Under the pieces are notes generated by a model. That model made no database searches. It was not told the DNA's origin and saw only the letters and a list, made by a program, of their open reading frames with translations. From NCBI GenBank assembly GCA_002448815.1, contig DKAJ01000003.1:175892-239891 (forward strand): a stretch of DNA of 64,000 nt, given 5' to 3'. Positions 5,774 through 27,451 of this stretch are shown piece by piece. This DNA is from Micavibrio sp. UBA6929. GTDB lineage: Bacteria > Pseudomonadota > Alphaproteobacteria > Micavibrionales > Micavibrionaceae. The position numbers and the translations under genes are program-made. Each line of letters begins with the position of its first letter. The stretch's first letter is position 1.

Positions 5774-5852
5774 GGTGTTTCCTTTGAAAAATATGCTAAT
5801 AATGGGAATATAGTTTAAGGAATATAATCCTAAATCGGTACGTTTGTCAAGG

Positions 5853-7157: not shown

Positions 7158-7172
7158 GGTGGCATGATTTTA

Positions 7173-9633: not shown

Positions 9634-9728
9634 TATATGTATATTCGGCGTTTTTCTTGGCGCTGATTTCTTTGTTTTGCCATGCATTCGCCAGGGCATT
9701 TTCTTTGCCGCATTAAGGGAAAATAGTC

Positions 9729-10577: not shown

Positions 10578-11049
10578 GCTTTTTTATATTGTGCGTCGTG
10601 GCTCGCGTATATTGCGCTCAGCCAAGTGGCATATGCTTGTTGCACAATGCGGTAAGCGCTTTTGGGTGTTTGGACGCATTCGTATGGACATGCCTGAAAA
10701 GATTTATATCGGTGATCGCGTTAGTTTGAACGATGGCGTGTTTTTAATTGGCCGTGATGAGATACGCCTTGGTCATGGCGTGACATTGTCGCCGCATGTA
10801 TTGGTGACCTCGGCCAGTATGGATGTGCATCAAGGCTTGCCGCCATATCCGCGTGCCACAGGGCCGGTTGTGCTGGAAGACGGCGTTTGGGTTGGCGCGG
10901 GGGCGATTGTTTTACCAGGTGTCACGATAGGCAGAAATGCCGTTATCGCCGCAGGGTCTGTGGTCAATAAAGACGTGCCAGCAGGGCATCTTTATGGCGG
11001 TGTTCCCGCAAAAATGATTAAGAAAATTCACGATAAGGACGCGGCATAG
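10552..11049 (+). CDS. left-handed beta-helix (hexapeptide-repeat) O-acetyltransferase, WcaF/LacA-like
   Basis: Hexapeptide repeats [33 protein letters not shown] followed by GGVPAK. It overlaps the upstream sulfotransferase by 26 nt. Confidence 0.8.
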
Positions 11050-11050
11050 T

Positions 11051-12121: not shown

Positions 12122-13980
12122 TGTGCGGGATCTTTGGTCAGCTTAAATTAGGTGGTTTTTCCCAAGAAGAGGCGCGCCGCGCACTCAACAGTCTTGCACA
12201 CCGTGGCCCTGATCAGTGGAGTGACTGGGACGATGAGCATGTTTATTGCGGTCATCGCCGCCTGAGTATCATGGATCTTAGCGAAGCAGGCCGTCAGCCG
12301 ATGATTGGCCATGGCGTGATTTTGACGGTCAATGGTGAGATTTGGAATTTTATGGAACTGCGCGAAGAGCTGATTGCGCAAGGGTATAAATTTAATAGCC
12401 AGTCCGATAGCGAAGTTCTTCTTCACGGGTATCATGCGTGGGGTTGGGATCGTCTTCTTGAGCGTATTGATGGCATGTATGCTTTCAGTATCTATGATAC
12501 GAATTTGGGTAAATTATGCATTGCGCGTGATCGCTTTGGTATTAAACCGCTTTATTACGCGGCGGGAAATTTTGGGTTTGGATATGCGTCTGAGGTGAAA
12601 GCGCTTTTTGAATGGCGCGATGAATTGCGCTGTTTTTCCTTGAACGGGGTGCGTGATTGGCTCCTGTACAGAGGGGGGCAATCAGGCCTGACGCCCTATT
12701 ATCAAATTGTAAAATTACTGCCGGGACATTCGATCTGCGTTGATGTGCGAAGTGGTGATGTTGACGTGCGAAAATACTATGACGTGGTTGATCATATTGG
12801 CGATAAAAAGTCGGATCCAAATGATTTGCCTGACGTTTTTGAGGAGGCCGTTTCACGCAGGTTGATGGCAGATGTTCCCGTTGGATTGCAGCTTAGCGGC
12901 GGGGTGGATTCTTCGTTGGTTGGCCATGCAATGCATAAATTATACGATACGGATCAGATAAATTCTTTTTCTGTTGGTTTTGATGCCGAAAATGAGGCGC
13001 ATTTATCGGAAGAACCGTTTGCGCGCTATGTCGCCGATAAATATGGTTTTACGCATCATCAGTATAATATTAACCGCAAGATGATCGCCGAAAATTTTGA
13101 GCATGTCTTGTGGCTTGCGGATGGGATGCTGGATTATCCTAATACGGTGCCGATTTATTTGTTAAGCCGCTATGCCAAGCAAAATGTTACGGTTCAGTTG
13201 ACTGGCGAGGGCGCTGATGAGCTGTTTGCAGGGTATACCAAGTTTAAGAAGATGGCTGGTTTGTCGTCTGGTGGTTCCCTTGAGAAAATGATGCCAGATG
13301 GTGTGATTGATGCGATTGGGAATATGGATGCACGTGTGGGACGCATGTTGCATTTGCGTAAACACTACACAAAACAAAACGCCGTGATCCTTAATAGCTT
13401 GAACAGTTATATATCTGCATCCACAGTTGAGCAAATGTTTGGTCCTCATGAGGGGCATTTGTTGCGCGGCGATACGTGCGCGGCGCTGAAAGAATTTTCA
13501 TTTTCGCGGCAATTGATTTTGGCTGATCATAAGACATATCTTGTCGCCGTTTTAGAGCGTCAGGATAAATCGTCGATGGGCGCTGCGATCGAAAGTCGCG
13601 TTCCATTTTTGGATCGTAATTTGATCGAATGGGCGATGAATTTAGATGAAGATATTTTGTTCGGCGCAGATGAAACGAAAAAGATTTTGAAGGATTATGC
13701 AGCCGATATTTTTTCACATGATTTTGCGTACCGTAAAAAAGTTGGTTTTCCTTTGCCGCTTAAAAACTGGATGGAAAGTGATGCTGGTCTGAAGCCGTTT
13801 CGGGATAAAATTTATCAAAGCGATTTTTTGCTGAGTGAATATTTTATGCATTATAAGAAAAAATCATTTGATCATATTTTGCTGCATTACGGGGATAGTG
13901 AAAGCCAGTGGGTTGAGTATTTCATGATGGTCTTGCGAAGTGCACAGGATGTGTTTGGTATTCGTGAGGTGCGCCCATGA
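12121..13980 (+). CDS. glutamine-hydrolysing asparagine synthase family amidotransferase (EPS/O-antigen type, WbpS-like)
   Basis: MCGIFG N-terminus carries the Cys2 Ntn nucleophile. SGGVDSS PP-loop. The ATG at 12121 overlaps the upstream stop (TAATG), whereas the ORF-track start at 12079 lies inside the previous gene. Confidence 0.85.
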   Translation: MCGIFGQLKLGGFSQEEARRALNSLAHRGPDQWSDWDDEHVYCGHRRLSIMDLSEAGRQPMIGHGVILTVNGEIWNFMELREELIAQGYKFNSQSDSEVLLHGYHAWGWDRLLERIDGMYAFSIYDTNLGKLCIARDRFGIKPLYYAAGNFGFGYASEVKALFEWRDELRCFSLNGVRDWLLYRGGQSGLTPYYQIVKLLPGHSICVDVRSGDVDVRKYYDVVDHIGDKKSDPNDLPDVFEEAVSRRLMADVPVGLQLSGGVDSSLVGHAMHKLYDTDQINSFSVGFDAENEAHLSEEPFARYVADKYGFTHHQYNINRKMIAENFEHVLWLADGMLDYPNTVPIYLLSRYAKQNVTVQLTGEGADELFAGYTKFKKMAGLSSGGSLEKMMPDGVIDAIGNMDARVGRMLHLRKHYTKQNAVILNSLNSYISASTVEQMFGPHEGHLLRGDTCAALKEFSFSRQLILADHKTYLVAVLERQDKSSMGAAIESRVPFLDRNLIEWAMNLDEDILFGADETKKILKDYAADIFSHDFAYRKKVGFPLPLKNWMESDAGLKPFRDKIYQSDFLLSEYFMHYKKKSFDHILLHYGDSESQWVEYFMMVLRSAQDVFGIREVRP

Positions 13981-15212
13981 GCAACGTGTCCCGCGCGGAT
14001 ATTTCGTTCTTTTTACACCTTGGGTACTTCCCGGGTTATGCGGATGCGTTGCCACTGGATTACTCGGGGGTTGATCCATCGCGTTATGTGGGGTTGGATG
14101 AGCAAGCCCTGATGGATGAGGGGATGCGCCTGTTTCGTAAGGCGATCGAAGATGACTTTGTCACTGGCGCGCGTCATGTTGTGCCGATCAGCGGCGGTTT
14201 GGATAGTCGTGCGATTTTATGCGCGCTTCGTGAGTTTACGGATGCGGGCAATATTGAGACATATACGTTTGGCACGCCTGGCAGTTATGACTATGAGTTC
14301 GGCGCACAGGTTGCGCGCGCGGCGAGTGTGCGGCATCAGGCCATTGATTTAACGCAGGTATCTTGGCAGGCGGATGAGCTTTTGGAAAATGCGCGGCGTA
14401 ATGATGCCCAAACATTTTTATTTCATCATGTGCCGATTTCCCTGCTGGAGCCTTATAGCGATGCGTTGATATGGTCGGGGTATATTGGGGATGCGGTTGT
14501 CGGCGGTCATCTAAAGGCCGAGCCAGCACTGTCTTTGGAGCAAGCCAAGGGGCGCTATTTGAAAAAACGCGCCGAGGTTAAGTCGATGGTGATGCATGAC
14601 GGCGATGTTGGCGGTATGTCGGCGCATGTTGGTGGGGGCTTTGCCTCGCCAGATGTGTTGAGCTTCGATGAGCAGGTCTTGTTTGCAGAGGTTGGTAAAT
14701 TGGTTGCACCGCATGTTTTGATTAAGGGTTTTTCTTATAAAACGCCGTTTATTAATAATGATTTTTGGCGATGGGGCCTGAGTATTGATGGGCGCTGGCG
14801 CCGTGATCGTAATTTATTTATTGCGATGATGCGCCGTGCGTATCCCGATGTGTTTGATGTGCCTAATAAACCGAATTTTGGTTTGTCTTATAGTGCGTCA
14901 CGATCACAAGTGTTTGCGGCGCGTTTAAAAAACAAAATACTACATAAGGGCATTGAGGTGATGCCATTTATCAATTGGCCATCATCGCCGAATACGAATT
15001 TTATCGATTTTTCAAAATTGGTACGTGAGCGCGAAGATTTGAAAAATATGTCATATGCATTTTTGCAGGCATTAAAGGCGCGCGATATTGTGACGTGGTT
15101 GGATATTGATGTGATTTGGGAAACGCATTTTTCGCGGCGTAAAAATTGCGGTGATGCGATTGCATTATTGGTGTCGTTAGAAGCAAATTTACAGGTCAAA
15201 GAAGAGGGGTGA
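13977..15212 (+). CDS. asparagine-synthase synthetase-domain-only paralogue (PP-loop ATP pyrophosphatase), no glutaminase domain
   Basis: VVPISGGLDSRAIL PP-loop about 70 aa from the N-terminus, with no Cys2. ATGA overlap with the preceding AsnB-like gene. Confidence 0.6.
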   Translation: MSNVSRADISFFLHLGYFPGYADALPLDYSGVDPSRYVGLDEQALMDEGMRLFRKAIEDDFVTGARHVVPISGGLDSRAILCALREFTDAGNIETYTFGTPGSYDYEFGAQVARAASVRHQAIDLTQVSWQADELLENARRNDAQTFLFHHVPISLLEPYSDALIWSGYIGDAVVGGHLKAEPALSLEQAKGRYLKKRAEVKSMVMHDGDVGGMSAHVGGGFASPDVLSFDEQVLFAEVGKLVAPHVLIKGFSYKTPFINNDFWRWGLSIDGRWRRDRNLFIAMMRRAYPDVFDVPNKPNFGLSYSASRSQVFAARLKNKILHKGIEVMPFINWPSSPNTNFIDFSKLVREREDLKNMSYAFLQALKARDIVTWLDIDVIWETHFSRRKNCGDAIALLVSLEANLQVKEEG

Positions 15213-15215
15213 AAA

Positions 15216-16301
15216 ATGCGTCTTTTTTATGCCTCAGGATCCTTGATTCCATCTGATCGTGCGAACAGTGTTCATGTCATGAAAATGTGTCAGGCCTTTG
15301 CAAAAAATGGATGTGATGTCACGTTGTTTGCCAAACGTGGTGGGTGTGAAAATCCATTTGATTTTTACGGCGTTGATTCGATTTTTTCGTATGTTTTTTC
15401 GCCTTTCAAAAACGGCATTTTTCGTCTTGTTGATCAGGCCTATCAATTTTTAAAATTGCCAAAACCTGATATTTGTTATGGGCGAGACCCTTGGCTTTTG
15501 GCATGGATGTCTTTGTTTTGTCCGGTGGTTTTAGAGCTTCATGAGGTTCCATCTGGGTTGCAGGGCAGGGTGGTGAAATGGCTGTTTTTGAAAAATAAAA
15601 CAAAACTTATCGTATGTATTTCAAAGTCTTTGCTATCAGATGTTTTGGCCTTTTTGGGCTCCTCAGATGAGGCGCGTTTTGTTGTTGCGCATGATGGCGC
15701 AGATATTCATGAAAACGTAACGGTTGGTATTTTAAAGGACGTTAAGCCTGCTGTTGGTTACGTTGGGTCGCTTCTTCCCGGGAAGGGCGCGGAGGTTTTG
15801 GTTGATCTTGCCGCGCGTATGCCAGAGATTTCGTTTCACATTGTTGGCGGTTCTCGGCAGCAAATTGATGAATTGAGGATACGTGAAAAAGGTGGTGATG
15901 TCCACTATCATGGGCATGTTTCTCATGGTGATTTGAGTCAGTATATTTCTGGTTTTGATGTTGTTGTTGCACCTTATCAAAAAGATATGTCGCTGCGCAC
16001 TGGTGTGAATATTTCACGATGGATTTCACCCTTAAAATTGTTTGAATATATGGCCGCGAAAAAGCCAATTATTTGTAGTGATCTTTCTGTGCTGCGTGAG
16101 GTGATGGAGCATGAAAAAAATTGCCTTTTGGTGGCGCCAGATAATTTGGATGAGTGGCAAAATGCGATCACACGTTTGGTGAATGATGAAGCGTTAAAAG
16201 TGCGCTTGTCAGATCAGGCGCTAGCCGATTTGAAAGAGCATTATACATGGGATAAACGTGCGAAAAATATTCTTGGTGCTGTGACAAAGGCATTGATGTG
16301 A
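15216..16301 (+). CDS. GT4-family (GT-B) glycosyltransferase
   Basis: 361 aa. The C-terminal half carries an EX7E-like region: PLKLFEYMAAKKPIICSDLSVLREVMEHEKN. Confidence 0.8.
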   Translation: MRLFYASGSLIPSDRANSVHVMKMCQAFAKNGCDVTLFAKRGGCENPFDFYGVDSIFSYVFSPFKNGIFRLVDQAYQFLKLPKPDICYGRDPWLLAWMSLFCPVVLELHEVPSGLQGRVVKWLFLKNKTKLIVCISKSLLSDVLAFLGSSDEARFVVAHDGADIHENVTVGILKDVKPAVGYVGSLLPGKGAEVLVDLAARMPEISFHIVGGSRQQIDELRIREKGGDVHYHGHVSHGDLSQYISGFDVVVAPYQKDMSLRTGVNISRWISPLKLFEYMAAKKPIICSDLSVLREVMEHEKNCLLVAPDNLDEWQNAITRLVNDEALKVRLSDQALADLKEHYTWDKRAKNILGAVTKALM

Positions 16302-16315
16302 TTTACACTTGATTC

Positions 16316-17626
16316 ATGATTCGCATTTCTCGTGCACTTATTCTTACATTGTTGGCTTCTTCTTATATGGCAATGCCCGCGCATGCGCAGGACGCAAAGC
16401 CCGCTTGGGAGCGTTTTGGCTTTAAGGATGACTCGACCAACAAAGGTAAATTGCGCGCCGTTGATCCGGGTGTATTGACGACGTCGCCTTTCCATTGGCG
16501 AGGTTTTAAGATTTATGCGCGGATGGATACCGAGGAAGAATATAACGATAATATTTATGCGACCGAGGATGATGCGGACGCGGATTTTATTACGCGGTTT
16601 AAGCCTAGCGCGACTGTTGTCAAAGATGTTGGCCGTCATCAGTTTACTGTCAGTGCTAAAGGCGAGATGGAACGCTATGCGGATTCGCCCGATGAAAATA
16701 CCATTGATGGTGAGGCGCAATTTGGCGGCGTTTTAGAAGCGTATCGCAGTTTTGTTATTCCATTTAATGTGACGCACGGCGTCTATCATACAGACCGCGC
16801 TAAGGTGCGCGGCACCAGTTTTGGCGCGCTGACGCGCAAGCCTGTTGAGTATAGCGAGACCACCGCCGAAGCGGGATTTCGTTATCAGCCTAATCGTTTA
16901 GGGTTGTCGGTTATGGGACGCGCAGGGCAGACCCGTTATAAAAATGGGGTGTCGAACTCTGGCGCGGAGGCTATCTATAAAGATGGTGATTTTGACCAGA
17001 ATGAAATTGATGCGCGCCTGTCTTATGCGACGCAAACTTCTTTCGAGCCTTATGTGCAGGTTAAGTGGACTGACCAGAATATGAAGAACCGCGAATATGT
17101 TGCGGGTAGCGGTTTTACTGGTAATGACCGCAGTAATAAGAGCTTTTTAGCGCGCCTTGGATCGACCTTTGATTATAAGGGGCTGGTGACTGGTTTTTTA
17201 AGTATTGGCCGTGAAAATCGCACATACGATCAAAGTAACATTGATGATGCATCAAGCTTGTCTTTTGCAGGTGCGGTGCAGTTGATTTTAAATCCAAAAT
17301 GGAAATTAAATTTGGATGCTGGCGTTTCTACGGCAGAGGATACATTGATTAAGGCAGGCATGAAAAAGCGTGGCTTTGGCATTGGTTTGGATTATGAATT
17401 GCAGCAAGACTTGTTTGCAACGCTTGGCGTGAATTATAACGAGGATGAATTTACCAGCCTTGTCCGTACAGATGAAACGTGGGAGCTTGGCGGTGGTATG
17501 CGCTATGTGATTAGTCCGCGCCTGTCTTTGAGCGCAGAATACTTAAACCGTATGCGCGATAGTGATGCGGCAGATGCGGATTTGGATAATCATATGGTTA
17601 TCTTGCGTCTGAGTGGCGCCCTTTAA
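16316..17626 (+). CDS. outer-membrane beta-barrel protein associated with the glycan locus (BBP2/OmpL-like)
   Basis: Signal peptide MIRISRALILTLLASSYMAMPAHA/QD. EEYNDNIYAT motif. Alternating amphipathic strands rich in Y/G/R run to the C-terminus. Confidence 0.55.
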   Translation: MIRISRALILTLLASSYMAMPAHAQDAKPAWERFGFKDDSTNKGKLRAVDPGVLTTSPFHWRGFKIYARMDTEEEYNDNIYATEDDADADFITRFKPSATVVKDVGRHQFTVSAKGEMERYADSPDENTIDGEAQFGGVLEAYRSFVIPFNVTHGVYHTDRAKVRGTSFGALTRKPVEYSETTAEAGFRYQPNRLGLSVMGRAGQTRYKNGVSNSGAEAIYKDGDFDQNEIDARLSYATQTSFEPYVQVKWTDQNMKNREYVAGSGFTGNDRSNKSFLARLGSTFDYKGLVTGFLSIGRENRTYDQSNIDDASSLSFAGAVQLILNPKWKLNLDAGVSTAEDTLIKAGMKKRGFGIGLDYELQQDLFATLGVNYNEDEFTSLVRTDETWELGGGMRYVISPRLSLSAEYLNRMRDSDAADADLDNHMVILRLSGAL

Positions 17627-19186: not shown

Positions 19187-22100
19187 ATGGCTAATCAAAC
19201 GCAATATGCTAAGACAATCGATGTTTCTTCTAGTAAGGGGTATACATTTGATTTTAACGAAAGTGACATTGTCAGTGTTACATATCTTAGTAACGATCAA
19301 GCGATGATTCAGCTGGCCTCAGGCTCTTTATATCTTCTTAAAAATATTGATGGTTTGTCTTCAGGTAATGCGCCGGTCGTATTTAATGACGGCACTGCGC
19401 TGAATTCTCAGACGCTGTCTTTACACTCTATGATTAGCTCGACAAGTTCTGTCTTGTCAGGTGATCAGCCTGAAACATTGCAGGCGCCTGATGCGCCAGA
19501 GGTGAAGACAATCACGGTTGATCGTTTGACTCCTTTATCACTTGGCGTTGAGTTTGTTGACATTCAATCTGTACACAGCGGCGATAATGAAGTGATTTTG
19601 ACGTTGAATAACGGTCAGAAAATTGTCTTGGAAAATGTTGCCGAAGTTATGGCTGAGAACCCAGAAGTTGCGGTTTTCTTGAACAACGAAGTGATGACGT
19701 TGCAAGATCTTGTTACGGCGCTGAATGTTGATACAGGGTTGTTTGAAGTTCAGGTTGCTTCTTTGGCGGAAGAGCTTGCGATTATCGAACCGGCAGCGGG
19801 CGAAACATCTGGCGCGCAAAATTCTGGTTTTACATTTCAGGATATTTCTTCTGCATCGTTTAACAATGGCCCAGCAGCCGTTGGCCCAATCGGCGCGACG
19901 AGCCTTGCTTATACGGCAACAACAACACAAGATGATGTGTTCCGCGTTACATTTGACGAGCAAACTGGCGAGCCAATCTTCACAACGATTACAGCGCAAC
20001 CACCAACATTGACAGTCAATACAAATGGTTCAAATGCAGAAGTTTACGAAGATGGATCAATCTTTGTTCCTATTACGGCAAGTTTGAACGATACAGATGG
20101 TGGTTCTGAAACGCTTTCTTTGACATTGAGCGGCATTCCTGCGGGCTGGGGTTTTTCTGGCGCGGGCTGGACGGATAATGGCAATGGCACATATACCTAT
20201 GACGGTTTGGCAGCAGGTCAGGATTACAGCGGCGGTATTACATTGACACCACCAGCGGACAGCGATGTTGACTTGTCAGGTTTGACCGTTGTTGCCACAG
20301 CAACAGAAAGCAACGGTGATACGGCGACAGCAACGCAAAGCATTGATGTGATCGTTGATGCGGTTGCGGATGCGCCAATTATTACAGTGACAGATGCGTC
20401 TGGTTCGACAAGCTCTAGTAGCTCATCTTCAAGCTCTAGCAGTTCTTCATCGAGTGGTTCATCTTCAAGCTCTAGCAGCTCGTCTTCTAGTGGTTCATCA
20501 TCTTCAAGCTCTAGTAGCTCATCATCAAGCGGTTCGTCTTCAAGTTCTAGTAGTAGCTCGTCTTCTGGCTTTAGCGGCGCAGAGGATAGTGATATTGCGT
20601 TGGATATTTCTGTGGCGTTGACCGATACAGATGGATCGGAGAGCATTACAGCAATTTATATCAGCAATGTTCCTGCGGGCTTTACATTTTCGGCTGGTAC
20701 GAATGAAGGCAATGGGGTTTGGTCGTTTACGCAGGCCGAGCTTAACGGTTTGACGATTTCATCGCCAACAGGTTATGCGGGTACGATTAACTTGCTCGTA
20801 AGCGCGACATCGACAGAAACAAATGTTTCTGACGCCGAGCTAACATTGACGAATAATGACGCAACATCTACGGCGCCATTTTCTGTGACGTGGGATGCTG
20901 GTTCGGATGCGCAGCCACCAAGTCTAACAGTCAATACAGATGGTTCTGATGCGGAAGTTTACGAAGATGGATCAATCTTTGTTCCTATTACGGCAAGCCT
21001 GAATGATACAGATGGCTCAGAAACGCTGTCTTTGACGTTGAGCGGCATTCCTGCGGGCTGGGGTTTTTCTGGCGCGGGCTGGACGGATAATGGTAACGGG
21101 ACATACACTTATGATGGTCTTTCTGCGGGTCAGGATTACAGCGGCGGTATTACTTTGTCACCACCAGCGGATAGCGATGTTGATCTATCGGGTTTGACAG
21201 TTGTTGCGACTGCGACAGAGAGCAACGGTGAAACAGCCACAGCAACGCAAAGCATTGATGTGATCGTTGATGCGGTTGCGGATGCGCCGATCATTCAAGT
21301 GAATGATGTTTCTGGCGGTACGATTAGTGGCGGTTCATCGTCTTCAAGCTCTAGCAGCTCTTCGTCTTCTGGCGGTTCGTCATCTTCAAGCTCTAGCAGC
21401 TCTTCATCTTCTAGCGGTTCGTCGTCTTCAAGTTCTAGCAGCTCTTCATCATCTAGCGGCTCATCGTCTTCATCAAGCTCTAGCAGCGCATCATCTGGCG
21501 GTAGCGGCGCAGAAGACAGTGATATTCCATTGGGCATTTCAGTGGCTTTGACCGATACGGATGGATCGGAAAGCATTACTGCGATTTACATTACAAATGT
21601 TCCTGCAGGTTTCTCGTTCTCGGCGGGTACAGATATGGGTGCAGGTGTGTGGTCATTTACCGAGGCGGAATTGCGTGGTTTGACGATTTCACCGCCTCCT
21701 GGTTATACGGGTACAATTGATTTGTTTGTTCGTGCAACATCAACAGAGACAAATGTTTCTGACACTGAGCTAACACTGACAAACAACGAAGCCACAACAA
21801 CAGAGGCCTTTTCTGTGACATGGGGCGGCGATGCAGATACGCCAAACCTGACAGTGAATACAAATGGTTCTGATGCGCAGGTTTATGAAGATAATTCTGT
21901 TTACGTACCAATTTCTGCAAGTTTGAATGATGCAGATGGTTCTGAAACACTGTCTTTAACAGTCAGCGGCATTCCTGCAGGCTGGGGCGTGTCTGGCGCG
22001 GGCTGGACTGCGAATGGTAACGGCACTTATAGCTATAATGGCTTGGCTGCTGGTGCGAATTATAACGGCGGTATTACGCTGACACCACCGGCAGACAGCG

Positions 22101-24190
22101 ACGTTGATTTGCCAAATCTGACAGTTGTTGCAACTGCGACAGAAAGCAATGGCGATACGGCCACAGCAACGCAAACAATTGACGTTGACGTTGATGCGGT
22201 TGCAGACGCGCCAAGCGTTTCTGTAAGCTTGAGCGGCGGATCAAACGGCGCAGGCAGCACAGTTGACTTCGATTTGTCAGTTGCGCTGAATGATACGGAT
22301 GGTTCGGAAGAGATTTCATCAATTCTTGTGCAGGGTGTTCCTGCAGGGTTTACATTCTCTGCCGGTACAGATATGGGCGCAGGTGTATGGTCATTCACAC
22401 CAGACGATCTTAACGGTTTGACCCTTACACCAACCAACGATTACAGCGGTACGCTCAACCTTACTGTGGTTGCGACATCAACAGAAACGAACCTGTCTGG
22501 TGAAGAGGTTACACTGGCTAATAACAGTGCTTCGACATCGGCAAGCGTATCTGTAAGCTGGGACGCAGCAGATGATCAGTTTGAGGTTGGTCCAAATACG
22601 AACACAACACTGACAGGTGCAAGCGGTAATGACATCTTTGTTGGTGATACTGGCGGTTCGGTCGTGACGCAGCCTGATCAAGATTATAACTTGAACATTA
22701 TCGTTGATACCAGCGGATCACTGCAAAGCCAGTGGGATATGGTTCAAAATGCGATTGAAAGCCTGCTTCAGGAAGTTGGCCAGTATGATGGCGGCGATAT
22801 TCATGTGAACTTGATCCCATTTGCACCAGTTGTCACAAATGATGTGACAGGCGGTTCATCGTCTTCAAGCTCTAGCAGTTCGTCATCTTCGGGTGGATCG
22901 TCTTCAAGCTCTAGCAGCTCGAGCAGTTCATCATCAGGCAGTAGCTCGTCTTCATCAAGCTCTAGTAGCTCGTCATCTTCGGGTGGATCATCTTCAAGCT
23001 CTAGCAGCTCGAGCAGTTCATCGTCTGGTACTGGCTATGACTATTTCAACGGTGATGTTGAGCCAAGCAGCCATTATGTGACGCAAACAAACGGCTTGAA
23101 CGCGCTGGTTGATTTTATCAATAACCAGGTGTCTTACGGATCGACAAACTTTGAAGCAGTCTTATCTGCGGCGATTGATATTATTGATCAAAACTCAATT
23201 GATAATGCGGCGACATATACGTTCTTTATCTCTGATGGTGCGGCCAATGCCTATACTGACAGTGATGGTACGGTTGAATTTACACCATACCCATCAGATA
23301 GCGCAGTGCCAGGCGGTACGAATATTGACGTTGAAGATCAAATCAACGGCAGTGCAGACGGATCAAATGAGATCGGCGGCTTGCAAGCAACAAGCGATGA
23401 GGTTTTCAGCATTATTGTTGGTTCACCATCCGCGTCAGAGCAAGACATCATGGATGCAATCGATTCAAATGGTTCTTCTGATTACCTGACAACAGATAAC
23501 GGTCTGGATGGGTATGCGAACCTGTTTAATGCGGCTGCGATTGTTGTTGAACTTGCCGATGCAGGCAGTGACACAATTACAGGGTCAGGCGGTGATGATA
23601 TCTTGTTTGGTGATGTTTTGTTCACTGACGAGCTTGCCGATGATAATGGTATTATAGCTGATGATGGCGCGGGCTTTAGAGTCTTTGAGATGCTTGAAGC
23701 GACTTCAGGTTGGGATCGTGATGACACGATTGAATACATTGAAAATAATGCGGTGACGCTTGCGAAAGAATCGAACATTAACGGTGAAGTACGCGGCGGT
23801 GGCCATGACCATATTTATGGCGGCGACGGTAACGATACTATCTTTGGCCAAGAAGGAAATGATTATATTTCTGGTGGTAATGGTAATGATGATCTTTACG
23901 GCGGCAGTGGCGCAGACACATTTGCCCTAGGTGGTACAGGCGTTGATACGATCCATGATTTCTCGATTGCGCAAAATGACGTGATTGACTTGTCATCATA
24001 CCTCAGCGGCTATAACCCGACGCAAGATGCGATTACTGATTTTGTGCGCATCACAACAAGCGGCCAAAACAGCATTGTTTCTATCAGTGAAAATGGCAAT
24101 GGTCAGTTCACAACAGTTGCGACTATTGAAGGTGTGACTGGTTTGACGAACGAGCAATCATTACTGAATGACGGCACAATTGTTGTGTAA
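19187..24190 (+). CDS. giant secreted adhesin-like protein: six T1SS-143-like repeat subdomains, poly-Ser tracts, vWA/MIDAS domain, short RTX block and type I secretion C-terminal target domain
   Basis: 1667 aa with no signal peptide. Repeated ...DTDGSE...DAVADAP modules. DTSGS MIDAS motif (nt 22705-22719). GGDGNDTIFGQEGNDYISGGNGNDDLYGGSGADTF. The C-terminal ...DVIDLSSYL...IVV resembles the VC_A0849-type T1SS target domain. Confidence 0.8.
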   Translation: MANQTQYAKTIDVSSSKGYTFDFNESDIVSVTYLSNDQAMIQLASGSLYLLKNIDGLSSGNAPVVFNDGTALNSQTLSLHSMISSTSSVLSGDQPETLQAPDAPEVKTITVDRLTPLSLGVEFVDIQSVHSGDNEVILTLNNGQKIVLENVAEVMAENPEVAVFLNNEVMTLQDLVTALNVDTGLFEVQVASLAEELAIIEPAAGETSGAQNSGFTFQDISSASFNNGPAAVGPIGATSLAYTATTTQDDVFRVTFDEQTGEPIFTTITAQPPTLTVNTNGSNAEVYEDGSIFVPITASLNDTDGGSETLSLTLSGIPAGWGFSGAGWTDNGNGTYTYDGLAAGQDYSGGITLTPPADSDVDLSGLTVVATATESNGDTATATQSIDVIVDAVADAPIITVTDASGSTSSSSSSSSSSSSSSSGSSSSSSSSSSSGSSSSSSSSSSSSGSSSSSSSSSSSGFSGAEDSDIALDISVALTDTDGSESITAIYISNVPAGFTFSAGTNEGNGVWSFTQAELNGLTISSPTGYAGTINLLVSATSTETNVSDAELTLTNNDATSTAPFSVTWDAGSDAQPPSLTVNTDGSDAEVYEDGSIFVPITASLNDTDGSETLSLTLSGIPAGWGFSGAGWTDNGNGTYTYDGLSAGQDYSGGITLSPPADSDVDLSGLTVVATATESNGETATATQSIDVIVDAVADAPIIQVNDVSGGTISGGSSSSSSSSSSSSGGSSSSSSSSSSSSSGSSSSSSSSSSSSSGSSSSSSSSSASSGGSGAEDSDIPLGISVALTDTDGSESITAIYITNVPAGFSFSAGTDMGAGVWSFTEAELRGLTISPPPGYTGTIDLFVRATSTETNVSDTELTLTNNEATTTEAFSVTWGGDADTPNLTVNTNGSDAQVYEDNSVYVPISASLNDADGSETLSLTVSGIPAGWGVSGAGWTANGNGTYSYNGLAAGANYNGGITLTPPADSDVDLPNLTVVATATESNGDTATATQTIDVDVDAVADAPSVSVSLSGGSNGAGSTVDFDLSVALNDTDGSEEISSILVQGVPAGFTFSAGTDMGAGVWSFTPDDLNGLTLTPTNDYSGTLNLTVVATSTETNLSGEEVTLANNSASTSASVSVSWDAADDQFEVGPNTNTTLTGASGNDIFVGDTGGSVVTQPDQDYNLNIIVDTSGSLQSQWDMVQNAIESLLQEVGQYDGGDIHVNLIPFAPVVTNDVTGGSSSSSSSSSSSSGGSSSSSSSSSSSSSGSSSSSSSSSSSSSSGGSSSSSSSSSSSSSGTGYDYFNGDVEPSSHYVTQTNGLNALVDFINNQVSYGSTNFEAVLSAAIDIIDQNSIDNAATYTFFISDGAANAYTDSDGTVEFTPYPSDSAVPGGTNIDVEDQINGSADGSNEIGGLQATSDEVFSIIVGSPSASEQDIMDAIDSNGSSDYLTTDNGLDGYANLFNAAAIVVELADAGSDTITGSGGDDILFGDVLFTDELADDNGIIADDGAGFRVFEMLEATSGWDRDDTIEYIENNAVTLAKESNINGEVRGGGHDHIYGGDGNDTIFGQEGNDYISGGNGNDDLYGGSGADTFALGGTGVDTIHDFSIAQNDVIDLSSYLSGYNPTQDAITDFVRITTSGQNSIVSISENGNGQFTTVATIEGVTGLTNEQSLLNDGTIVV
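20406..20568 (+). repeat. poly-Ser(Gly) coding cassette 1
   Basis: About 50 residues of S11-13 blocks separated by G. Contains the 20-mer TCTTCAAGCTCTAGCAGCTC (20462-20481). Confidence 0.9.
21329..21506 (+). repeat. poly-Ser(Gly) coding cassette 2
   Basis: Same organisation as cassette 1. The 20-mer occurs at 21341-21360 and 21383-21402. Confidence 0.9.
22851..23029 (+). repeat. poly-Ser(Gly) coding cassette 3, inside the vWA domain
   Basis: The same 20-mer occurs at 22902-22921 and 22992-23011. There is an internal 90-nt direct duplication (22881-22940 versus 22971-23030). Confidence 0.9.
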
Positions 24191-24273: not shown

Positions 24274-25110
24274 TTATTCGGCGTCGTCTTCGAGGAACCA
24301 GTTTTCGCTAGCGGCGATAAACTCGGGGTTGAGCATATCGCGCTCGGTATGGCCGTATGTGAAGGCCGTGCCATCAGTTTGCACCAGGCATCCGCCCGCA
24401 GCATTAAGGACAGCGTGCGCGGCGGCGGTGTCCCATTCGCATGTCGGGCCAAGGCGCGGGTAAAGGTCGGCTTTGCCTTCTGCGATGGCGCAGATTTTCA
24501 GAGAGCTTCCACGGCGCATGAGCTTATTGATCTTGAATGACTCAAGCAATTTTTCCATGCGCTCATTATCGCCGTGCGATTTGCTGGCTACAACGGTTAG
24601 GCCGTTTTTAGGGGCGCTGCGCACGTGAATGGATTTGTCTTGATCTGTTTCTTCGCTCCAGCGGATGGCGCTGCCTGCGGCGTGACCTGCATATAAAACG
24701 CCTGTTACAGGAACAAAGACAACGCCCATTACAGGCGTGTCGCCTTTGATAAGGGCGATATTTACGGTGAAATCTGATCCGCCTTGGATGAATTCTTTTG
24801 TGCCGTCTAGTGGATCAACTAGCCAGAAATATTCTCCTTGAGAAAGGTTAGGCATTTTGCCGGCTTCTTTGGATTCTTCACCGACCATTGGGATGTCTGG
24901 TGTGATGCTGGCTAGTTCTTTGGCGATGTATTCTTCGGCCTTTTGATCGGCCAGACTAACGGGGGATCCATCACCTTTTGTTTCGACGTTCAGGTTGCCC
25001 ATCTCGTAATAATCAAGGGTAATGTCGCCAGCCTGCACGGCAATGCGGCGCACCATGTTGCATAATGCGGGCAGGTTCGCGAGGAGCTTTGCTGATAAAG
25101 GGTGTCCCAT
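24274..25110 (-). CDS. cysQ: 3'(2'),5'-bisphosphate nucleotidase (PAP phosphatase)
   Basis: WLVDPLDGTKEFI and FTVNIALI, in the IMPase-fold CysQ pattern. The start codon shares one nucleotide with the ugd stop (TAATG). Confidence 0.85.
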   Translation of the reverse strand: MGHPLSAKLLANLPALCNMVRRIAVQAGDITLDYYEMGNLNVETKGDGSPVSLADQKAEEYIAKELASITPDIPMVGEESKEAGKMPNLSQGEYFWLVDPLDGTKEFIQGGSDFTVNIALIKGDTPVMGVVFVPVTGVLYAGHAAGSAIRWSEETDQDKSIHVRSAPKNGLTVVASKSHGDNERMEKLLESFKINKLMRRGSSLKICAIAEGKADLYPRLGPTCEWDTAAAHAVLNAAGGCLVQTDGTAFTYGHTERDMLNPEFIAASENWFLEDDAE

Positions 25111-26462
25111 TATTGTGCAACTTCTTTTAAGGCTGGCGTGCCTTGGTTTGCTTCAACCGCTGGACGGCCGATAGACACGTAATCAAAGCCGCGCGCGGCC
25201 ATGTCTTTGATTTTATAGATATTGCGCATGTCGATGATACGCTTTTCCGCCAGCAGGTCTTCTACGCGGTCAAGGTCAAGGGCGCGAAATTCGTTCCACT
25301 CGGTAATGATGGCAAGGGCATCGGCGCCTTCGATGGCTTCGTATGAATCCTTCGCCCATGTCACGTCAGAAAGGACTTTTGCCGCATTATCCATAGCAGC
25401 AGGATCAAAGGCCGAGATTTGCGCGCCAGCGGCTTGCAGGTGCGGGATGATTTGCAGGCTTGGTGCCTCGCGGATGTCATCTGTGCCAGGTTTAAATGAA
25501 ATGCCAAGTACGGCAATTTTTTTGCCTTTCACATCGCCGCCACATGTTTTCACAACAAGGTCAGCCATTTCCTGATGGCGCAGCGTGTTGATTTCGACAA
25601 CTTTTTCGACGATGCGTTGCGGCGCGCCGAATGTTTCGCCAATTTGCGTTAGGGCAAGAGTGTCCTTGGGGAAGCATGATCCGCCGTAGCCTGGGCCAGC
25701 GTGCAGGAATTTGCTGCCGATGCGGCCATCTAGGCCCATGCCGCGCGCAACTTCTTGGACGTTTGCGCCTGTTTTTTCGCACAGGTTTGCAATTTCGTTG
25801 ATGAAGGTGATCTTTGTCGCCAAGAAGGCATTGGCCGCATATTTGATTGTTTCAGATGTTTCCGGCGATGTGATGACCATCGGTGTTTCATTGATGTAAA
25901 GCGGGCGGTAAAGCGCTTTTAGCACATCTGTCGCGCGTTTAGAGCTTGATCCGATGACGACGCGGTCTGGGCGCATAAAGTCATTGATTGCGGCGCCTTC
26001 ACGCAGAAATTCTGGGTTTGAACAAATATCAAAATCACCATCAGGGCGTTCTTCGCGGACGATTTTTTCGACTTCGCGCGCTGTGCCGACAGGGACGGTC
26101 GATTTGGTCACGATCACTGTATAGCCATCCATGACGCGGGCGATTTCGCGCGCTGCTTGATAGACGTACGTCATATCCGCGTGACCGTCCTCTTCGCGTG
26201 GCGGTGTGCCAACAGCAATAAAGACTGCATCTGCGCCTTTGACGGCGTCTTCTAGGTTGGTTGTGAAGGAAAGGCGGCCTGCTTCGACCTGTTTTTTGAC
26301 CAATGTTTTTAGGCCGGGTTCGTAAATTGGGATTTCGCCGTTTTCTAGGCAGTCGATTTTGCTTTTGTCCTTATCGACGCAGATGACGTTGATGCCGAAT
26401 TCGGCAAAACATGTTCCAGAGACCAAGCCTACATAGCCTGTTCCAACCATTGCAATGCGCAT
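25110..26462 (-). CDS. ugd: UDP-glucose 6-dehydrogenase
   Basis: MRIAMVGTGYVGLVSGTCFAEFG Rossmann N-terminus and the GGSCFPKD catalytic-Cys motif. 450 aa. Confidence 0.9.
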   Translation of the reverse strand: MRIAMVGTGYVGLVSGTCFAEFGINVICVDKDKSKIDCLENGEIPIYEPGLKTLVKKQVEAGRLSFTTNLEDAVKGADAVFIAVGTPPREEDGHADMTYVYQAAREIARVMDGYTVIVTKSTVPVGTAREVEKIVREERPDGDFDICSNPEFLREGAAINDFMRPDRVVIGSSSKRATDVLKALYRPLYINETPMVITSPETSETIKYAANAFLATKITFINEIANLCEKTGANVQEVARGMGLDGRIGSKFLHAGPGYGGSCFPKDTLALTQIGETFGAPQRIVEKVVEINTLRHQEMADLVVKTCGGDVKGKKIAVLGISFKPGTDDIREAPSLQIIPHLQAAGAQISAFDPAAMDNAAKVLSDVTWAKDSYEAIEGADALAIITEWNEFRALDLDRVEDLLAEKRIIDMRNIYKIKDMAARGFDYVSIGRPAVEANQGTPALKEVAQ

Positions 26463-26579
26463 GAGATACTCCGTTCTTTGATCGTCCCAATTGTTGTTTG
26501 ACCATAGACCATTTTATGGCGCTGTAAAACGGTTTCTTGGGCTTTTCACAAAAACATGCCCAATTTGCAGATTGGAAAG

Positions 26580-26598
26580 CGTTTACAAATCGTTTACA
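26580..26598. promoter_or_regulatory. direct repeat CGTTTACA-N3-CGTTTACA (11-nt period) in the ugd/sapC divergent region, candidate winged-helix response-regulator site
   Basis: cGTTTACAaatcGTTTACAc is read directly from the sequence. It ends about 65 nt upstream of the SapC-family ATG. Confidence 0.3.
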
Positions 26599-26662
26599 CT
26601 TTCCGTGGTAGGGTAGTTTTTATCCTAGTTGTTTGTGAGATTATAAAGGGGACATATAGAAT

Positions 26663-27451
26663 ATGGCTAAGAGCAAAGAAACAGAGAATAAAGAAGAGGC
26701 AAAGGGCGCATCGTCTGCGTTTCCATTGTTTTACAGTGAGCCTCGACCACTTGATTCAGAGGCGCATAAAACACTGGCGCTAAAGGAAGGGTTAGGTTTT
26801 GGGTTTACTGATAAAGTGAATGCCGTGCCTGTGAACTTGGTAGAGATGCCGCAAATTTGCCATCATTATCCGATTGCCTTTAGTCCTGATGCGAATGCAA
26901 CGCCTGTTGCGATTTTGGGTTTGCGCGATGGTGAGAACCTGTTCGTTGATAAAGAGGGTAAATGGGCGGAAGGGGCGTATATTCCTGCATATATTCGCCG
27001 TTATCCTTTCATTTTTTCAGAAGTGCCTGAAAGCGATCAATTGACGCTTTGTATTGATTTCAAAGAAGGTGAAACCGTTCAAGAGGGCGGCGATAAAAAG
27101 TTCTTTGATGATGAAGGTAAGGCAACGGCGCTTGCGTCAAATGCGCTTGAGTTTTGTAAGTCATACCACGCGGCAGCGCAGCGCACAGCCGAATTTTCAA
27201 AAGAATTGCTGGCAAAAGATTTGCTGATCGAACGCCAGGCGCAAATTCAAGTTGGCAGTGATGTGCGTATTAACTTTAGCGGCTTTAAAATCGTTGATGA
27301 GAAAAAGCTAGCTGAACTTGATGATGCGACATTCCTTGAGTGGCGTAAAAAAGGCTGGTTGCCGTTTTTATATGCTCACTTATTCTCAGGCGTTCAGTGG
27401 CAGTCACTAAGCGGTGCGTTGTCTAAGATCCTTGAGGCTGAAAAAGCATAA
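26663..27451 (+). CDS. SapC-family protein
   Basis: 262 aa. PLDSEAHKTLALKE..., MPQICHHYPIAF and YIPAYIRRYPFIF match my recollection of the SapC (PF07277) family. Confidence 0.65.
   Translation: MAKSKETENKEEAKGASSAFPLFYSEPRPLDSEAHKTLALKEGLGFGFTDKVNAVPVNLVEMPQICHHYPIAFSPDANATPVAILGLRDGENLFVDKEGKWAEGAYIPAYIRRYPFIFSEVPESDQLTLCIDFKEGETVQEGGDKKFFDDEGKATALASNALEFCKSYHAAAQRTAEFSKELLAKDLLIERQAQIQVGSDVRINFSGFKIVDEKKLAELDDATFLEWRKKGWLPFLYAHLFSGVQWQSLSGALSKILEAEKA

What the first reader, a model, noticed from the sequence alone, without database searches (positions are those of the whole stretch)
20406..23029. The same poly-Ser-coding DNA cassette appears at three separate positions in one giant gene
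Three ~160-180-nt tracts (20406-20568, 21329-21506, 22851-23029) encode blocks of 11-14 Ser separated by Gly. All three reuse the same nucleotide words. The 20-mer TCTTCAAGCTCTAGCAGCTC occurs verbatim at 20462, 21341, 21383, 22902 and 22992, so the tracts are related by DNA-level duplication or transfer rather than by convergent low complexity.

The third tandem unit has SGGSNGAGSTVDFDLSVAL at the equivalent site and no tract. The tract therefore behaves as an insertion into a pre-existing domain boundary.

Possible roles are extended, possibly glycosylated spacers or a recombination-driven length-variation device. The complementary strand of each tract is also stop-free.
Basis: seen in the sequence. 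Interest (0 to 1): 0.7.

Follow-up and report, generated by a model that had tools for sequence, protein, structure and literature searches.

The report
Polyserine loops copied within an adhesin gene
Three stretches of almost pure serine in one giant secreted adhesin-like protein of an uncultured marine bacterium are real, share one DNA origin, and are recent insertions into loops of folded domains; they look like the known "polyserine linkers" in an unusual place, and they show no length variation in the assemblies available.

Summary
Gene 19187-24190 (+, 1667 aa) encodes a type I-secreted RTX adhesin-like protein. It carries three tracts, at 20402-20569, 21326-21496 and 22850-23035. Each tract is four units of Gly(1-2)-Ser(9-15), with a 36-48 nt period and 83-89% Ser.

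All 12 units fit one codon template. Sharing between tracts far exceeds synonymous-codon shuffles, so the tracts are related at the DNA level.

Two syntenic orthologues and all 120 best homologues lack the tracts, so they are lineage-specific insertions. They are not at domain boundaries:
- Tracts 1 and 2 split a loop after the first strand of two paralogous Ig/cadherin-like domains. They were inherited when the ~920-nt unit duplicated.
- Tract 3 splits the vWA domain and is an ectopic copy bounded by GGCGGT...TCTGG.

Four assemblies, three from other samples, give tract 3 with no difference, and the whole protein is identical on 5 contigs. Hypervariability is therefore not supported.

The same 20-mer occurs in Cellvibrionaceae polyserine linkers at about the chance rate, so it does not indicate transfer between genomes.

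Verdict: a polyserine-linker-like coding minisatellite, which is a new variant of a known kind. Interest is modest. Its function, probably disordered hydrophilic loops, is inferred.

The parts
19187..24190 (+). Host gene: 1667-aa type I-secreted RTX adhesin-like protein
   Evidence: ORF. HemolysinCabind E=2.7e-14. TIGR03661 T1SS C-terminal target domain E=2.5e-10. 506 homologues at E<=1e-10; those that carry a source name are mostly alphaproteobacterial (Micavibrio, Microvirga, Thalassospira).
20000..20914 (+). Tandem unit U1 (domain A plus domain B), carries tract 1
   Evidence: 81% nt identity to U2 and 72% to U3. Aligns with 19 homologue segments.
20915..21838 (+). Tandem unit U2 (domain A plus domain B), carries tract 2
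   Evidence: AlphaFold2 with alignment A1: mean pLDDT 83 and two beta-sandwich domains. Foldseek matches tandem Ig/cadherin-like structures.
21839..22573 (+). Tandem unit U3, tract-free; has SGGSNGAGS at the equivalent loop
20402..20569 (+). Tract 1: four units, G-S/T(17), G-S11, G-S12, G-S11; 50 Ser in 56 aa
21326..21496 (+). Tract 2: four units, GG-S12, GG-S13, G-S13, G-S9-A-S2; 50 Ser in 57 aa; predicted disordered
   Evidence: pLDDT below 50 over model residues 135-189.
22850..23035 (+). Tract 3: four units, GG-S12, GG-S13, G-S14, GG-S13, with an internal 90-nt duplication; inserted in the vWA domain
   Evidence: (family D4, 88%).
22697..22849 (+). vWA domain, N-terminal part (first strand with MIDAS DTSGS, helix 1, second strand)
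   Evidence: Pfam VWA/VWA_2 profile positions 2-49. Alignment with homologues.
23036..23239 (+). vWA domain, C-terminal part (MIDAS Thr in GSTNFE, MIDAS Asp in ISDGAAN)
   Evidence: Pfam VWA_2 positions 52-106. One contiguous hit at 3-106/107, 30.3 bits, once tract 3 is deleted in silico.
23816..23920 (+). RTX nonapeptide repeats (best-scoring stretch)
   Evidence: PF00353, aa 1544-1578.
23945..24163 (+). Type I secretion C-terminal target domain
   Evidence: TIGR03661, aa 1587-1659, 41.4 bits against a cut-off of 17.6.

Best explanation
The three tracts are one lineage-specific, in-frame coding minisatellite. Its unit is about 12-16 codons, GGY(GGY) followed by 9-15 mixed Ser codons, with the template GGT TCA TCG TCT TCA AGC TCT AGC AGC TCT TCA TCT TCT AGC.

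Proposed history (inferred):
1. The unit arose in a small Ser/Gly-rich loop, still SGGSNGAGS in unit 3, after the first beta-strand of an Ig/cadherin-like extender domain of a type I-secreted RTX adhesin-like protein.
2. It expanded to four units by slippage or unequal exchange.
3. It was carried along when the ~920-nt two-domain unit duplicated, giving tracts 1 and 2.
4. It was copied ectopically into a Gly-Gly-containing loop of the vWA domain, giving tract 3. The mechanism was non-allelic gene conversion or template switching, and the copied block is bounded by GGCGGT on the 5' side and TCTGG on the 3' side.

At the protein level the tracts are disordered, highly hydrated poly-Ser loops. 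Their composition matches the polyserine linkers of Cellvibrionaceae enzymes, but they loop out of folded domains instead of joining them.

Selection keeps them Ser/Gly, because most differences between copies are synonymous. I infer that they act as flexible hydrophilic loops or 'brushes' on the adhesin stalk and beside the metal-ion ligand site of the vWA domain, rather than as a length switch.

Shown here: the anatomy, the DNA relatedness, insertion status, intradomain position, predicted disorder, and invariance across the available assemblies.

Inferred: the order of events, the copy mechanism, and the function.
For: Host protein
- RTX repeats and a T1SS C-terminal target domain.

One unit template
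- All 12 units align to one template at 61-93% identity.

DNA-level relatedness
- Shared 20-mers against synonymous-shuffle null means: T1-T2, 4 vs 0.11; T1-T3, 6 vs 0.04; T2-T3, 17 vs 0.10. The observed value was reached in 5, 0 and 0 of 500 shuffles.
- Two random founder units share 20 nt or more in 75 of 20000 simulations. All three share one 20-mer in 0 of 20000.

T1 and T2 inherited with their unit
- U1/U2 flanks are 81% identical, and identity across the tract (74-89%) is like that of the flanks. U3 is 71-72% identical to both and has no tract.

T3 as an ectopic copy
- Its similarity to T2 starts at an identical 29-mer, GGCGGTTCATCGTCTTCAAGCTCTAGCAG, and ends at TCTGG. The flanks are unrelated.

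Insertion status
- No poly-Ser in the 120 best homologues.
- P0030 and P0002 sit in the same gene neighbourhood: methyltransferase and alpha/beta-hydrolase upstream; Inositol_P, UDP-glucose dehydrogenase and SapC downstream. They have no run of 6 or more Ser in any frame of their loci.

Intradomain position
- The spacing from the DxP linker to the DxDGSE motif is 23 aa in 275 of about 480 homologous instances, and 81 and 87 aa here.
- In the AlphaFold2 model the strand at residues 126-131 precedes the tract and a strand at 193-199 follows it.
- Pfam VWA_2 becomes one contiguous hit, 3-106/107 at 30.3 bits, when T3 is removed, and is split in two with it.
- None of 12 vWA homologues has the insert. 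P0002 has an 11-aa insert at the same point.

Disorder
- pLDDT is below 50 across the tract and above 90 in most of the flanking sequence.

Constraint on the peptide
- Between tracts, 16-24 codon differences are synonymous and 5-6 are non-synonymous. Only 26% of random single-base changes in these codons would keep Ser.
- Ser codon usage in the tracts matches the rest of the gene.

Stability
- T3 and the 1.2-1.4 kb upstream of it are identical in L035, L036 and L037, which come from different samples.
- The full protein is identical on 5 contigs.
Against: - No experiment or read-level data bears on function.
- The available assemblies are otherwise 100% identical over 2.5 kb. The sampled population is nearly clonal, and consensus assemblies hide minority length variants, so the test for polymorphism has low power.
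- The direction of the T2/T3 transfer, and a single copy event versus ongoing conversion, cannot be resolved from 12 short units.
- That strand 126-131 packs against domain B, making the tract an intradomain loop, is inferred from conserved spacing, the parallel with domain A and high local pLDDT. Model coordinates could not be inspected.
- The vWA structure could not be modelled: the single-sequence run gave pLDDT 37.
- The synonymous/non-synonymous count rests on an alignment of low-complexity DNA.
Confidence: 0.6

Rival explanations
1. Length-variation (contingency) device. The tandem 36-48-nt units, with 20-32-nt exact internal repeats, promote frequent in-frame gain and loss of units, so the population carries adhesins with different loop lengths.
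For: - In-frame tandem units with long exact repeats, for example a 23-nt repeat spaced 42 nt apart in T2 and a 32-nt repeat spaced 90 nt apart in T3.
- T3 contains a 90-nt internal duplication at 88% identity, so unit-number change has happened at least once.
- The host is a surface or secreted protein.
Against: - T3 is identical in length and sequence in four assemblies, three of them from other samples.
- The complete protein is identical on 5 contigs.
- Units within a tract have diverged to 61-93% identity, so turnover is slow compared with point mutation.
- Every tract has four units.
- The two Logan contigs that end inside T3 are explained by a 32-nt internal repeat longer than the assembler's word. 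This is my reading, taking the assembler's word to be 31 nt from my own knowledge.
Confidence: 0.15
2. Convergent low complexity. Three independent slippage expansions occurred at three Ser/Gly-rich loops, and similar codon words arose from shared codon preference without any DNA transfer between sites.
For: - The same 20-mer occurs in 18 loci of unrelated genomes, mostly Cellvibrionaceae, inside classical polyserine linkers. The longest shared strings there are only 20-29 nt.
- From the codon frequencies of those linkers the word is expected once per ~7700 Ser codons.
- Ser codon usage in the tracts equals that of the rest of the gene.
Against: - Within this gene the sharing is far above what codon usage gives.
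- T2 and T3 begin with the same 29-mer, including the GGC GGT codons.
- All 12 units share one codon order.
Confidence: 0.07
3. Acceptor sites for modification. The Ser/Gly tracts are O-glycosylated, sulfated or phosphorylated, giving a proteoglycan-like or mucin-like adhesin.
For: - The gene sits next to two sulfotransferases, a GT4 glycosyltransferase, asparagine-synthase-like genes, UDP-glucose dehydrogenase and an Inositol_P (CysQ-like) gene.
- The orthologous locus L031 also has APS-kinase/GTPase and PAPS-reductase-family genes.
- From general knowledge: Ser-Gly repeats are glycosaminoglycan attachment sites in eukaryotic proteoglycans, and Ser-rich repeats are glycosylated in Gram-positive adhesins.
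Against: - The same neighbourhood surrounds the tract-free orthologues, so the linkage predates the tracts.
- From general knowledge: type I substrates are exported unfolded from the cytoplasm, which argues against bulky modification before export.
- No dedicated protein O-glycosyltransferase was identified.
Confidence: 0.06
4. Horizontal acquisition of a polyserine-linker cassette from a Cellvibrionaceae-type genome.
For: Exact 20-mer matches in Teredinibacter, Saccharophagus, Marinagarivorans and related genomes.
Against: - Matches extend only 20-29 nt.
- The number of hits is what chance predicts for genomes holding thousands of linker Ser codons (with linker counts from PMC2699552).
- Those linkers lack the Gly-punctuated unit.
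- Tract codon usage is native; for example TCC is absent here but makes up 12% of Ser codons in those linkers.
Confidence: 0.02

Closest known systems
Polyserine linkers (PSLs) of Cellvibrionaceae carbohydrate-active enzymes (Saccharophagus degradans, Teredinibacter turnerae, Cellvibrio japonicus)
   Same: - About 80-83% Ser over an average of 39-44 residues in secreted proteins (PMC2699552; PMC2386152). The tracts here are 83-89% Ser over 56-63 residues.
- Mixed use of TCN and AGY codons.
- The very same 20-nt word occurs in such linkers.
- The tract is predicted disordered here.
   Different: - PSLs join independently folding modules such as a catalytic domain and a carbohydrate-binding module. 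These tracts lie inside folded domains.
- The host here is a type I-secreted RTX adhesin-like protein whose named homologues are mostly alphaproteobacterial, not a carbohydrate-active enzyme of a gammaproteobacterium.
- The tracts have a regular Gly-punctuated four-unit minisatellite structure and share one DNA origin.
Giant RTX adhesins secreted by type I systems (LapA, SiiE, BapA, FrhA and MpIBP type; 'T1SS-143 repeat' proteins)
   Same: The host protein has RTX nonapeptides, a T1SS C-terminal target domain, tandem Ca-motif (DxDGSE) Ig/cadherin-like extender domains, and a ligand-binding-type vWA domain near the C-terminus.
   Different: - None of the 120 best homologues has poly-Ser tracts.
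- The N-terminal retention module gets only a sub-threshold hit (BapA_N, E=0.015).
- The ORFs scanned next to the gene and at the 5' end of the window (653-8621) matched no type I secretion component.
Serine-rich repeat glycoproteins of Gram-positive bacteria (Fap1, GspB, SraP)
   Same: Ser-rich low-complexity regions in a surface adhesin. The SraP ligand-binding region is among the fold matches of the flanking beta-sandwich domains.
   Different: From general knowledge, those proteins have hundreds of short SxSx-type repeats, an accessory Sec export locus with dedicated glycosyltransferases, and a cell-wall anchor. None of these is present here.
Specificity-determining loop of integrin beta-subunit A (I-like) domains
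   Same: A large insertion in the loop between the second and third beta-strands of a vWA-fold domain, next to the metal-ion ligand site (PMC1538996). Tract 3 occupies the topologically equivalent loop.
   Different: The integrin loop is an ordered, disulfide-bonded, ligand-contacting segment. Tract 3 is low-complexity poly-Ser and presumably disordered.
'Growth by insertion' of DDxP repeat proteins (Di Nocera and De Gregorio 2020, PMC7730722)
   Same: Type I-secreted repeat proteins whose homologues differ by inserted DNA segments. The modules here end in a related D-A-x-P motif (DAVADAP).
   Different: That model inserts whole 136-304-aa modules at the DDxP-coding dodecamer, with 18-bp target duplications. 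The tracts here start 10-13 codons downstream of DAP, or in the vWA domain. They have no target duplication and are low-complexity.

Membership tests
Polyserine linker (PSL) | A stretch of roughly 20-60 residues that is about 80% or more serine | tested here: met
   50/56, 50/57 and 52/63 Ser. Reference values of 80-83% Ser and 39-44 residues come from PMC2699552.
Polyserine linker (PSL) | Separates independently folding functional modules (interdomain position) | tested here: not met
   - T1 and T2 lie in a segment of fixed 23-aa length in homologous domains, after the first strand.
- T3 splits the vWA profile at positions 49-52 of 107.
Polyserine linker (PSL) | Found in secreted or surface proteins | tested here: met
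   T1SS C-terminal target domain and RTX repeats. Secretion itself is inferred.
Polyserine linker (PSL) | Encoded by a mixture of Ser codons rather than one repeated codon | tested here: met
   TCT, TCA, AGC, AGT and TCG are all used.
Type I-secreted RTX adhesin | RTX nonapeptide repeats plus a C-terminal type I secretion signal | tested here: met
   PF00353 E=2.7e-14. TIGR03661 at 41.4 bits against a cut-off of 17.6.
Type I-secreted RTX adhesin | Tandem Ig-like extender domains | tested here: met
   Three ~245-308-aa two-domain units. AlphaFold2 pLDDT 83 with two beta-sandwiches. Foldseek matches cadherin and integrin-leg structures.
Type I-secreted RTX adhesin | N-terminal retention module | tested here: inconclusive
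   BapA_N at 15.4 bits, below the 27-bit cut-off.
Type I-secreted RTX adhesin | Linked ABC transporter, membrane-fusion protein and outer-membrane factor genes | tested here: not met
   No neighbour within 10 kb on either side carries a precomputed Pfam family of a type I transporter. The three ORFs at 4163-8621 have no Pfam match. Such genes can be unlinked, so this does not exclude secretion.
vWA domain | MIDAS residues DxSxS, Thr and Asp, plus a profile match | tested here: met
   DTSGS, GSTNFE and ISDGAAN align with homologues. VWA_2 scores 28.2 bits with the tract (two stretches) and 30.3 bits without it (one stretch), against a cut-off of 27.
Contingency / variable-number tandem repeat locus | In-frame tandem repeats inside a surface-protein gene | tested here: met
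Contingency / variable-number tandem repeat locus | Copy number differs between strains or within populations | tested here: not met
   T3 is identical in L033, L035, L036 and L037. The full protein is identical on 5 contigs. Power is low because these are consensus assemblies of a near-clonal population.
Serine-rich repeat glycoprotein (Gram-positive SRRP) | Accessory Sec locus, dedicated glycosyltransferases, cell-wall anchor, SxSx repeats | tested here: not met
   The C-terminus is a T1SS signal, not an anchor. The repeats are homopolymeric Ser with Gly punctuation. No SecA2/Y2-type gene is among the called neighbours.

The most novel reading that the evidence does not exclude
The Ser/Gly tracts are attachment sites for sulfated or acidic glycans made by the surrounding sulfotransferase, glycosyltransferase and UDP-glucose dehydrogenase cluster. 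This would turn a type I-secreted adhesin into a bacterial proteoglycan-like molecule. The cassette would have been copied into three exposed loops because each copy adds a glycan-bearing site.
Probability: 0.04. Interest if true: 0.8.

Novelty: new variant of a known kind. Interest (0 to 1): 0.35.

Why it matters
If the reading is right, polyserine 'linkers' are not confined to joining modules of polysaccharide-degrading enzymes in one gammaproteobacterial family.

A poly-Ser coding minisatellite can arise in an alphaproteobacterial-type RTX adhesin. It can be copied between non-homologous sites of the same gene through Gly-codon microhomology. It can also be tolerated, and kept as Ser by selection, inside an Ig-like domain and next to the ligand site of a vWA domain.

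This gives a clean natural example, with tract-free orthologues as controls, for two questions:
- How low-complexity sequence spreads within genes.
- What long disordered loops do to adhesin mechanics and ligand access.

It is a modest, descriptive advance, not a new kind of system.

Tried and rejected
- Exact look-up of the protein in the 15-billion-protein clusters, hoping for length variants: the sequence is not in that collection.
- Metagenome scan with the C-terminal 384 aa: only distant RTX-region matches (35-71% over short stretches) and no close relatives, so no strain comparison from there.
- Single-sequence AlphaFold2 of the vWA region: pLDDT 37, unusable.
- PDB sequence search with unit 3: nothing significant.
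- RNA and DNA folding of tracts 2 and 3: z-scores of -0.39 and -0.76, so no structural signal.
- Howard et al. 2004, the defining polyserine-linker paper, is not held. Linker properties are cited through PMC2386152 and PMC2699552.
- Literature search for polyserine + RTX + adhesin: no papers.
- Transfer from Cellvibrionaceae: rejected. Matches are only 20-29 nt, hit numbers are at chance level, and codon usage differs.
- DDxP endonuclease 'growth by insertion' model: rejected. The tracts are not at the D-x-P codons and show no target duplication.
- Antisense gene: rejected. The 140-aa minus-strand ORF at 20224-20646 is a by-product of the stop-free antisense frame.
- Assembly artefact: rejected. 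Independent assemblies give the identical sequence.
- Taxonomic placement by a further whole-database protein search was not run, because it would not change the verdict.
Full report
**1. Observation**

The ORF at 19187-24190 (+) encodes 1667 aa. No copies appeared in 100 shuffles. With up to 3 mismatches there are 12 copies, all inside the three tracts.

Tandem Repeats Finder reports periods of 36, 42 and 39/48 nt with 3.4-3.9 copies. The tract limits and serine counts are:

| Tract | Window coordinates | Residues | Ser / length |
|---|---|---|---|
| T1 | 20402-20569 | aa 406-461 | 50/56 |
| T2 | 21326-21496 | aa 714-770 | 50/57 |
| T3 | 22850-23035 | aa 1222-1283 | 52/63 |

Each tract has four units of Gly(1-2) followed by 9-15 Ser. 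No other run of 6 or more Ser exists in any frame of the 64 kb.

The 'stop-free complementary strand' is one antisense frame out of three per tract. One extra sense frame is also open. Both follow from TCN/AGY composition. The 140-aa minus-strand ORF at 20224-20646 is that by-product.

**2. The host protein**

Pfam finds RTX nonapeptide repeats (E=2.7e-14). NCBIfam finds the type I secretion C-terminal target domain TIGR03661 (41.4 bits, cut-off 17.6). The N-terminus gives only a sub-threshold BapA-prefix match.

Three tandem units follow: U1 20000-20914, U2 20915-21838 and U3 21839-22573. Each is a pair of domains carrying DxDGSE motifs.

AlphaFold2 on U2, using a 22-row alignment, gives a mean pLDDT of 83 and two beta-sandwiches. 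Foldseek matches them to tandem Ig/cadherin-like structures: integrin alpha-V leg domains, protocadherin EC repeats, antigen I/II and SraP.

A vWA domain with intact MIDAS residues (DTSGS, Thr in GSTNFE, Asp in ISDGAAN) lies between the units and the RTX region.

The database search found 506 homologues at E<=1e-10. Those that carry a source name are mostly alphaproteobacterial (Micavibrio, Microvirga, Thalassospira, Rhodospirillales), and several are annotated 'T1SS-143 repeat domain'. The window itself is from MAG GCA_002716465.1, contig PBAW01000008.1.

**3. Are the tracts related at the DNA level?**

All 12 units align to one template, GGT TCA TCG TCT TCA AGC TCT AGC AGC TCT TCA TCT TCT AGC, at 61-93% identity.

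I shuffled synonymous codons within each tract, keeping the peptide and codon composition, and counted shared 20-mers between tracts:

| Pair | Observed shared 20-mers | Null mean | Shuffles reaching observed |
|---|---|---|---|
| T1-T2 | 4 | 0.11 | 5/500 |
| T1-T3 | 6 | 0.04 | 0/500 |
| T2-T3 | 17 | 0.10 | 0/500 |

A stricter null compares single random 'founder' units. Two of them share 20 nt or more in 75 of 20000 simulations. All three share one 20-mer in 0 of 20000. The tracts therefore share one DNA origin or exchange sequence.

A scan of 185,579 species genomes found it in 18 loci, nearly all Cellvibrionaceae (Teredinibacter, Saccharophagus, Marinagarivorans). There it lies inside classical polyserine linkers of chitinase-like enzymes, CBM proteins and lipoproteins, and the longest shared strings are only 20-29 nt.

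From the codon frequencies of those linkers the word is expected once per ~7700 linker Ser codons. T. turnerae alone encodes 42 carbohydrate-active proteins with such linkers, averaging 44 residues (PMC2699552). These hits are therefore chance convergence, not transfer. TCC makes up 12% of Ser codons in those linkers but is absent from the tracts. Tract codon usage instead mirrors the rest of this gene.

**4. Are they insertions, and where?**

None of the 120 best homologues has a comparable tract. Their longest Ser run is 6.

Two homologues are positional orthologues: P0030 (993 aa, GCA_001684045.1) and P0002 (1682 aa). Both have a methyltransferase and an alpha/beta-hydrolase upstream on the opposite strand, and Inositol_P, UDP-glucose dehydrogenase and SapC downstream, as in the window. 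The HTH_17 gene that follows SapC in the window is also seen in the P0030 locus; the P0002 loci end within SapC. Their loci contain no run of 6 or more Ser in any frame. The tracts are therefore lineage-specific.

T1 and T2 are not at a domain boundary:
- In 19 aligned homologue segments and in U3, the tracts fill a single gap between '...DAVADAP-x8-10' and 'G-x-E-D/G-x-x-I-x-L-x-I'.
- The distance from the D-x-P linker to DxDGSE is 23 aa in 275 of about 480 domain instances in the 120 homologues. It is 25-27 aa in this protein's tract-free domains, and 81 and 87 aa in the tract-bearing ones.
- In the model a confident strand (residues 126-131, IIQVND) precedes the tract and another strand (193-199) follows it. 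This mirrors strands 3-6 and 13-16 of domain A. Residues 135-189 have pLDDT below 50.

I infer that the tract loops out between the first two strands of domain B. I could not inspect the model coordinates to confirm this.

T3 is inside the vWA domain:
- The N-terminal part matches VWA profile positions 2-48 and the C-terminal part matches VWA_2 positions 52-106.
- Deleting T3 in silico turns two stretches into one contiguous hit at 3-106/107, scoring 30.3 bits.
- None of 12 aligned homologues has the insert. P0002 has an 11-aa insert at the same point, so the loop tolerates indels.
- The site follows the second beta-strand (IHVNLIPFA). That is the loop that carries the large 'specificity-determining' insertion in integrin beta A-domains (PMC1538996).

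**5. History (inferred)**

U1 and U2 are 81% identical at the nucleotide level. U3 is 71-72% identical to each. Identity across the tract columns (74-89%) is like that of the flanks. The simplest reading is that one tract formed in the common ancestor of U1 and U2, where U3 still has SGGSNGAGS, and was then duplicated with the unit.

T3 is closest to T2. Both begin with the identical 29-mer GGCGGTTCATCGTCTTCAAGCTCTAGCAG, and similarity ends at TCTGG. The surrounding sequences are unrelated. Orthologues have Gly-Gly at the vWA site (NGGEY, GAGGF). An ectopic copy through non-allelic conversion or template switching at Gly-codon microhomology is therefore plausible. T3 later underwent, or retains, a 90-nt internal duplication at 88% identity.

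**6. Constraint and stability**

Between tracts, 16-24 aligned codons differ synonymously and 5-6 differ non-synonymously. The non-synonymous differences are mostly Ser/Gly register shifts. Only 26% of random single-base changes in these codons would keep Ser. The peptide is therefore kept as Ser/Gly by selection, which also confirms that this frame is the translated one.

Assemblies from other samples (ERZ8580415, TARA_SAMEA2622823, ERR594323) cover window 21627/21653-24190 with no mismatch and no indel. T3 is thus invariant among them. The whole protein is identical on 5 contigs.

Two Logan contigs start at 22993, inside T3. A 32-nt exact internal repeat there exceeds the assembler's word size, taken here as 31 nt from my own knowledge, which explains the break.

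This argues against hypervariability, but with low power. These are consensus assemblies of a nearly clonal population. Neither RNA nor DNA folding of the tracts stands out from shuffles.

**7. Comparison with known systems**

The tracts have the composition, length and mixed-codon encoding of polyserine linkers (PMC2386152, PMC2699552). They fail the defining positional feature, because they do not join modules.

They differ from Gram-positive serine-rich repeat glycoproteins in repeat type, export route and anchoring. They do not fit the DDxP 'growth by insertion' model (PMC7730722). A full-text search for polyserine + RTX + adhesin found no papers.

**8. Verdict**

The DNA-level relatedness and the insertion status are supported. 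The 'domain boundary' and 'length-variation device' parts of the interpretation are not.

The tracts are best described as a polyserine-linker-like coding minisatellite that spread to three intradomain loops of one RTX adhesin gene. That is a new variant of a known kind and of modest interest. Its function, probably disordered hydrophilic loops, is inferred and untested.

Noticed in passing
window 653-4159 (+): A second type I-secretion-type substrate in the window. It is a 1168-aa serralysin-like metalloprotease (Peptidase_M10 plus Peptidase_M10_C) with 21 RTX repeat stretches (HemolysinCabind E=4.7e-122).
   Followed up: partly
window 8734-17626 and 24274-27451: The adhesin gene is embedded in a polysaccharide/sulfation-type cluster.
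- Upstream: two sulfotransferases, a hexapeptide transferase, an NHL-repeat protein, two asparagine-synthase-like genes, a GT4 glycosyltransferase and a BBP2_2 beta-barrel porin.
- Downstream: an Inositol_P (CysQ-like) gene, UDP-glucose dehydrogenase and SapC.

The immediate neighbours are conserved around the tract-free orthologues. Locus L031 also has APS-kinase and PAPS-reductase-family genes.
   Followed up: partly
window 4163-8621 (-): Three consecutive ORFs of 536, 434 and 482 aa have no Pfam match at E<=1e-5. Their sizes would fit transport or secretion components, but nothing supports that.
   Followed up: no
window 22993, 21627 and 21653; loci L034-L038: Short-read assemblies of this genotype from other samples break inside the gene. 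Two Logan contigs break at 22993, within a 32-nt repeat of tract 3. Three other contigs break at 21627 or 21653, in domain B of unit 2. Repeats in this gene fragment assemblies, so it is probably under-represented in MAGs.
   Followed up: yes
P0002, vWA region (locus L031/L032 gene 10001-15049): The orthologue P0002 has an unrelated 11-aa insert (APIFGPGGTVI) at exactly the vWA loop where tract 3 sits. This loop is an indel hotspot in the family.
   Followed up: partly
window 19187-24190 versus P0030 and P0002: Syntenic orthologues differ greatly in length (993, 1667 and 1682 aa) because they carry different numbers of two-domain units. The extender region changes by whole-unit gain and loss.
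   Followed up: partly
window 57291-60803 (-) and 39195-42362 (+): A 1170-aa hybrid histidine kinase (HisKA, HATPase_c, receiver, Hpt) and a YhdP-like 1055-aa protein. Neither is related to the finding.
   Followed up: no
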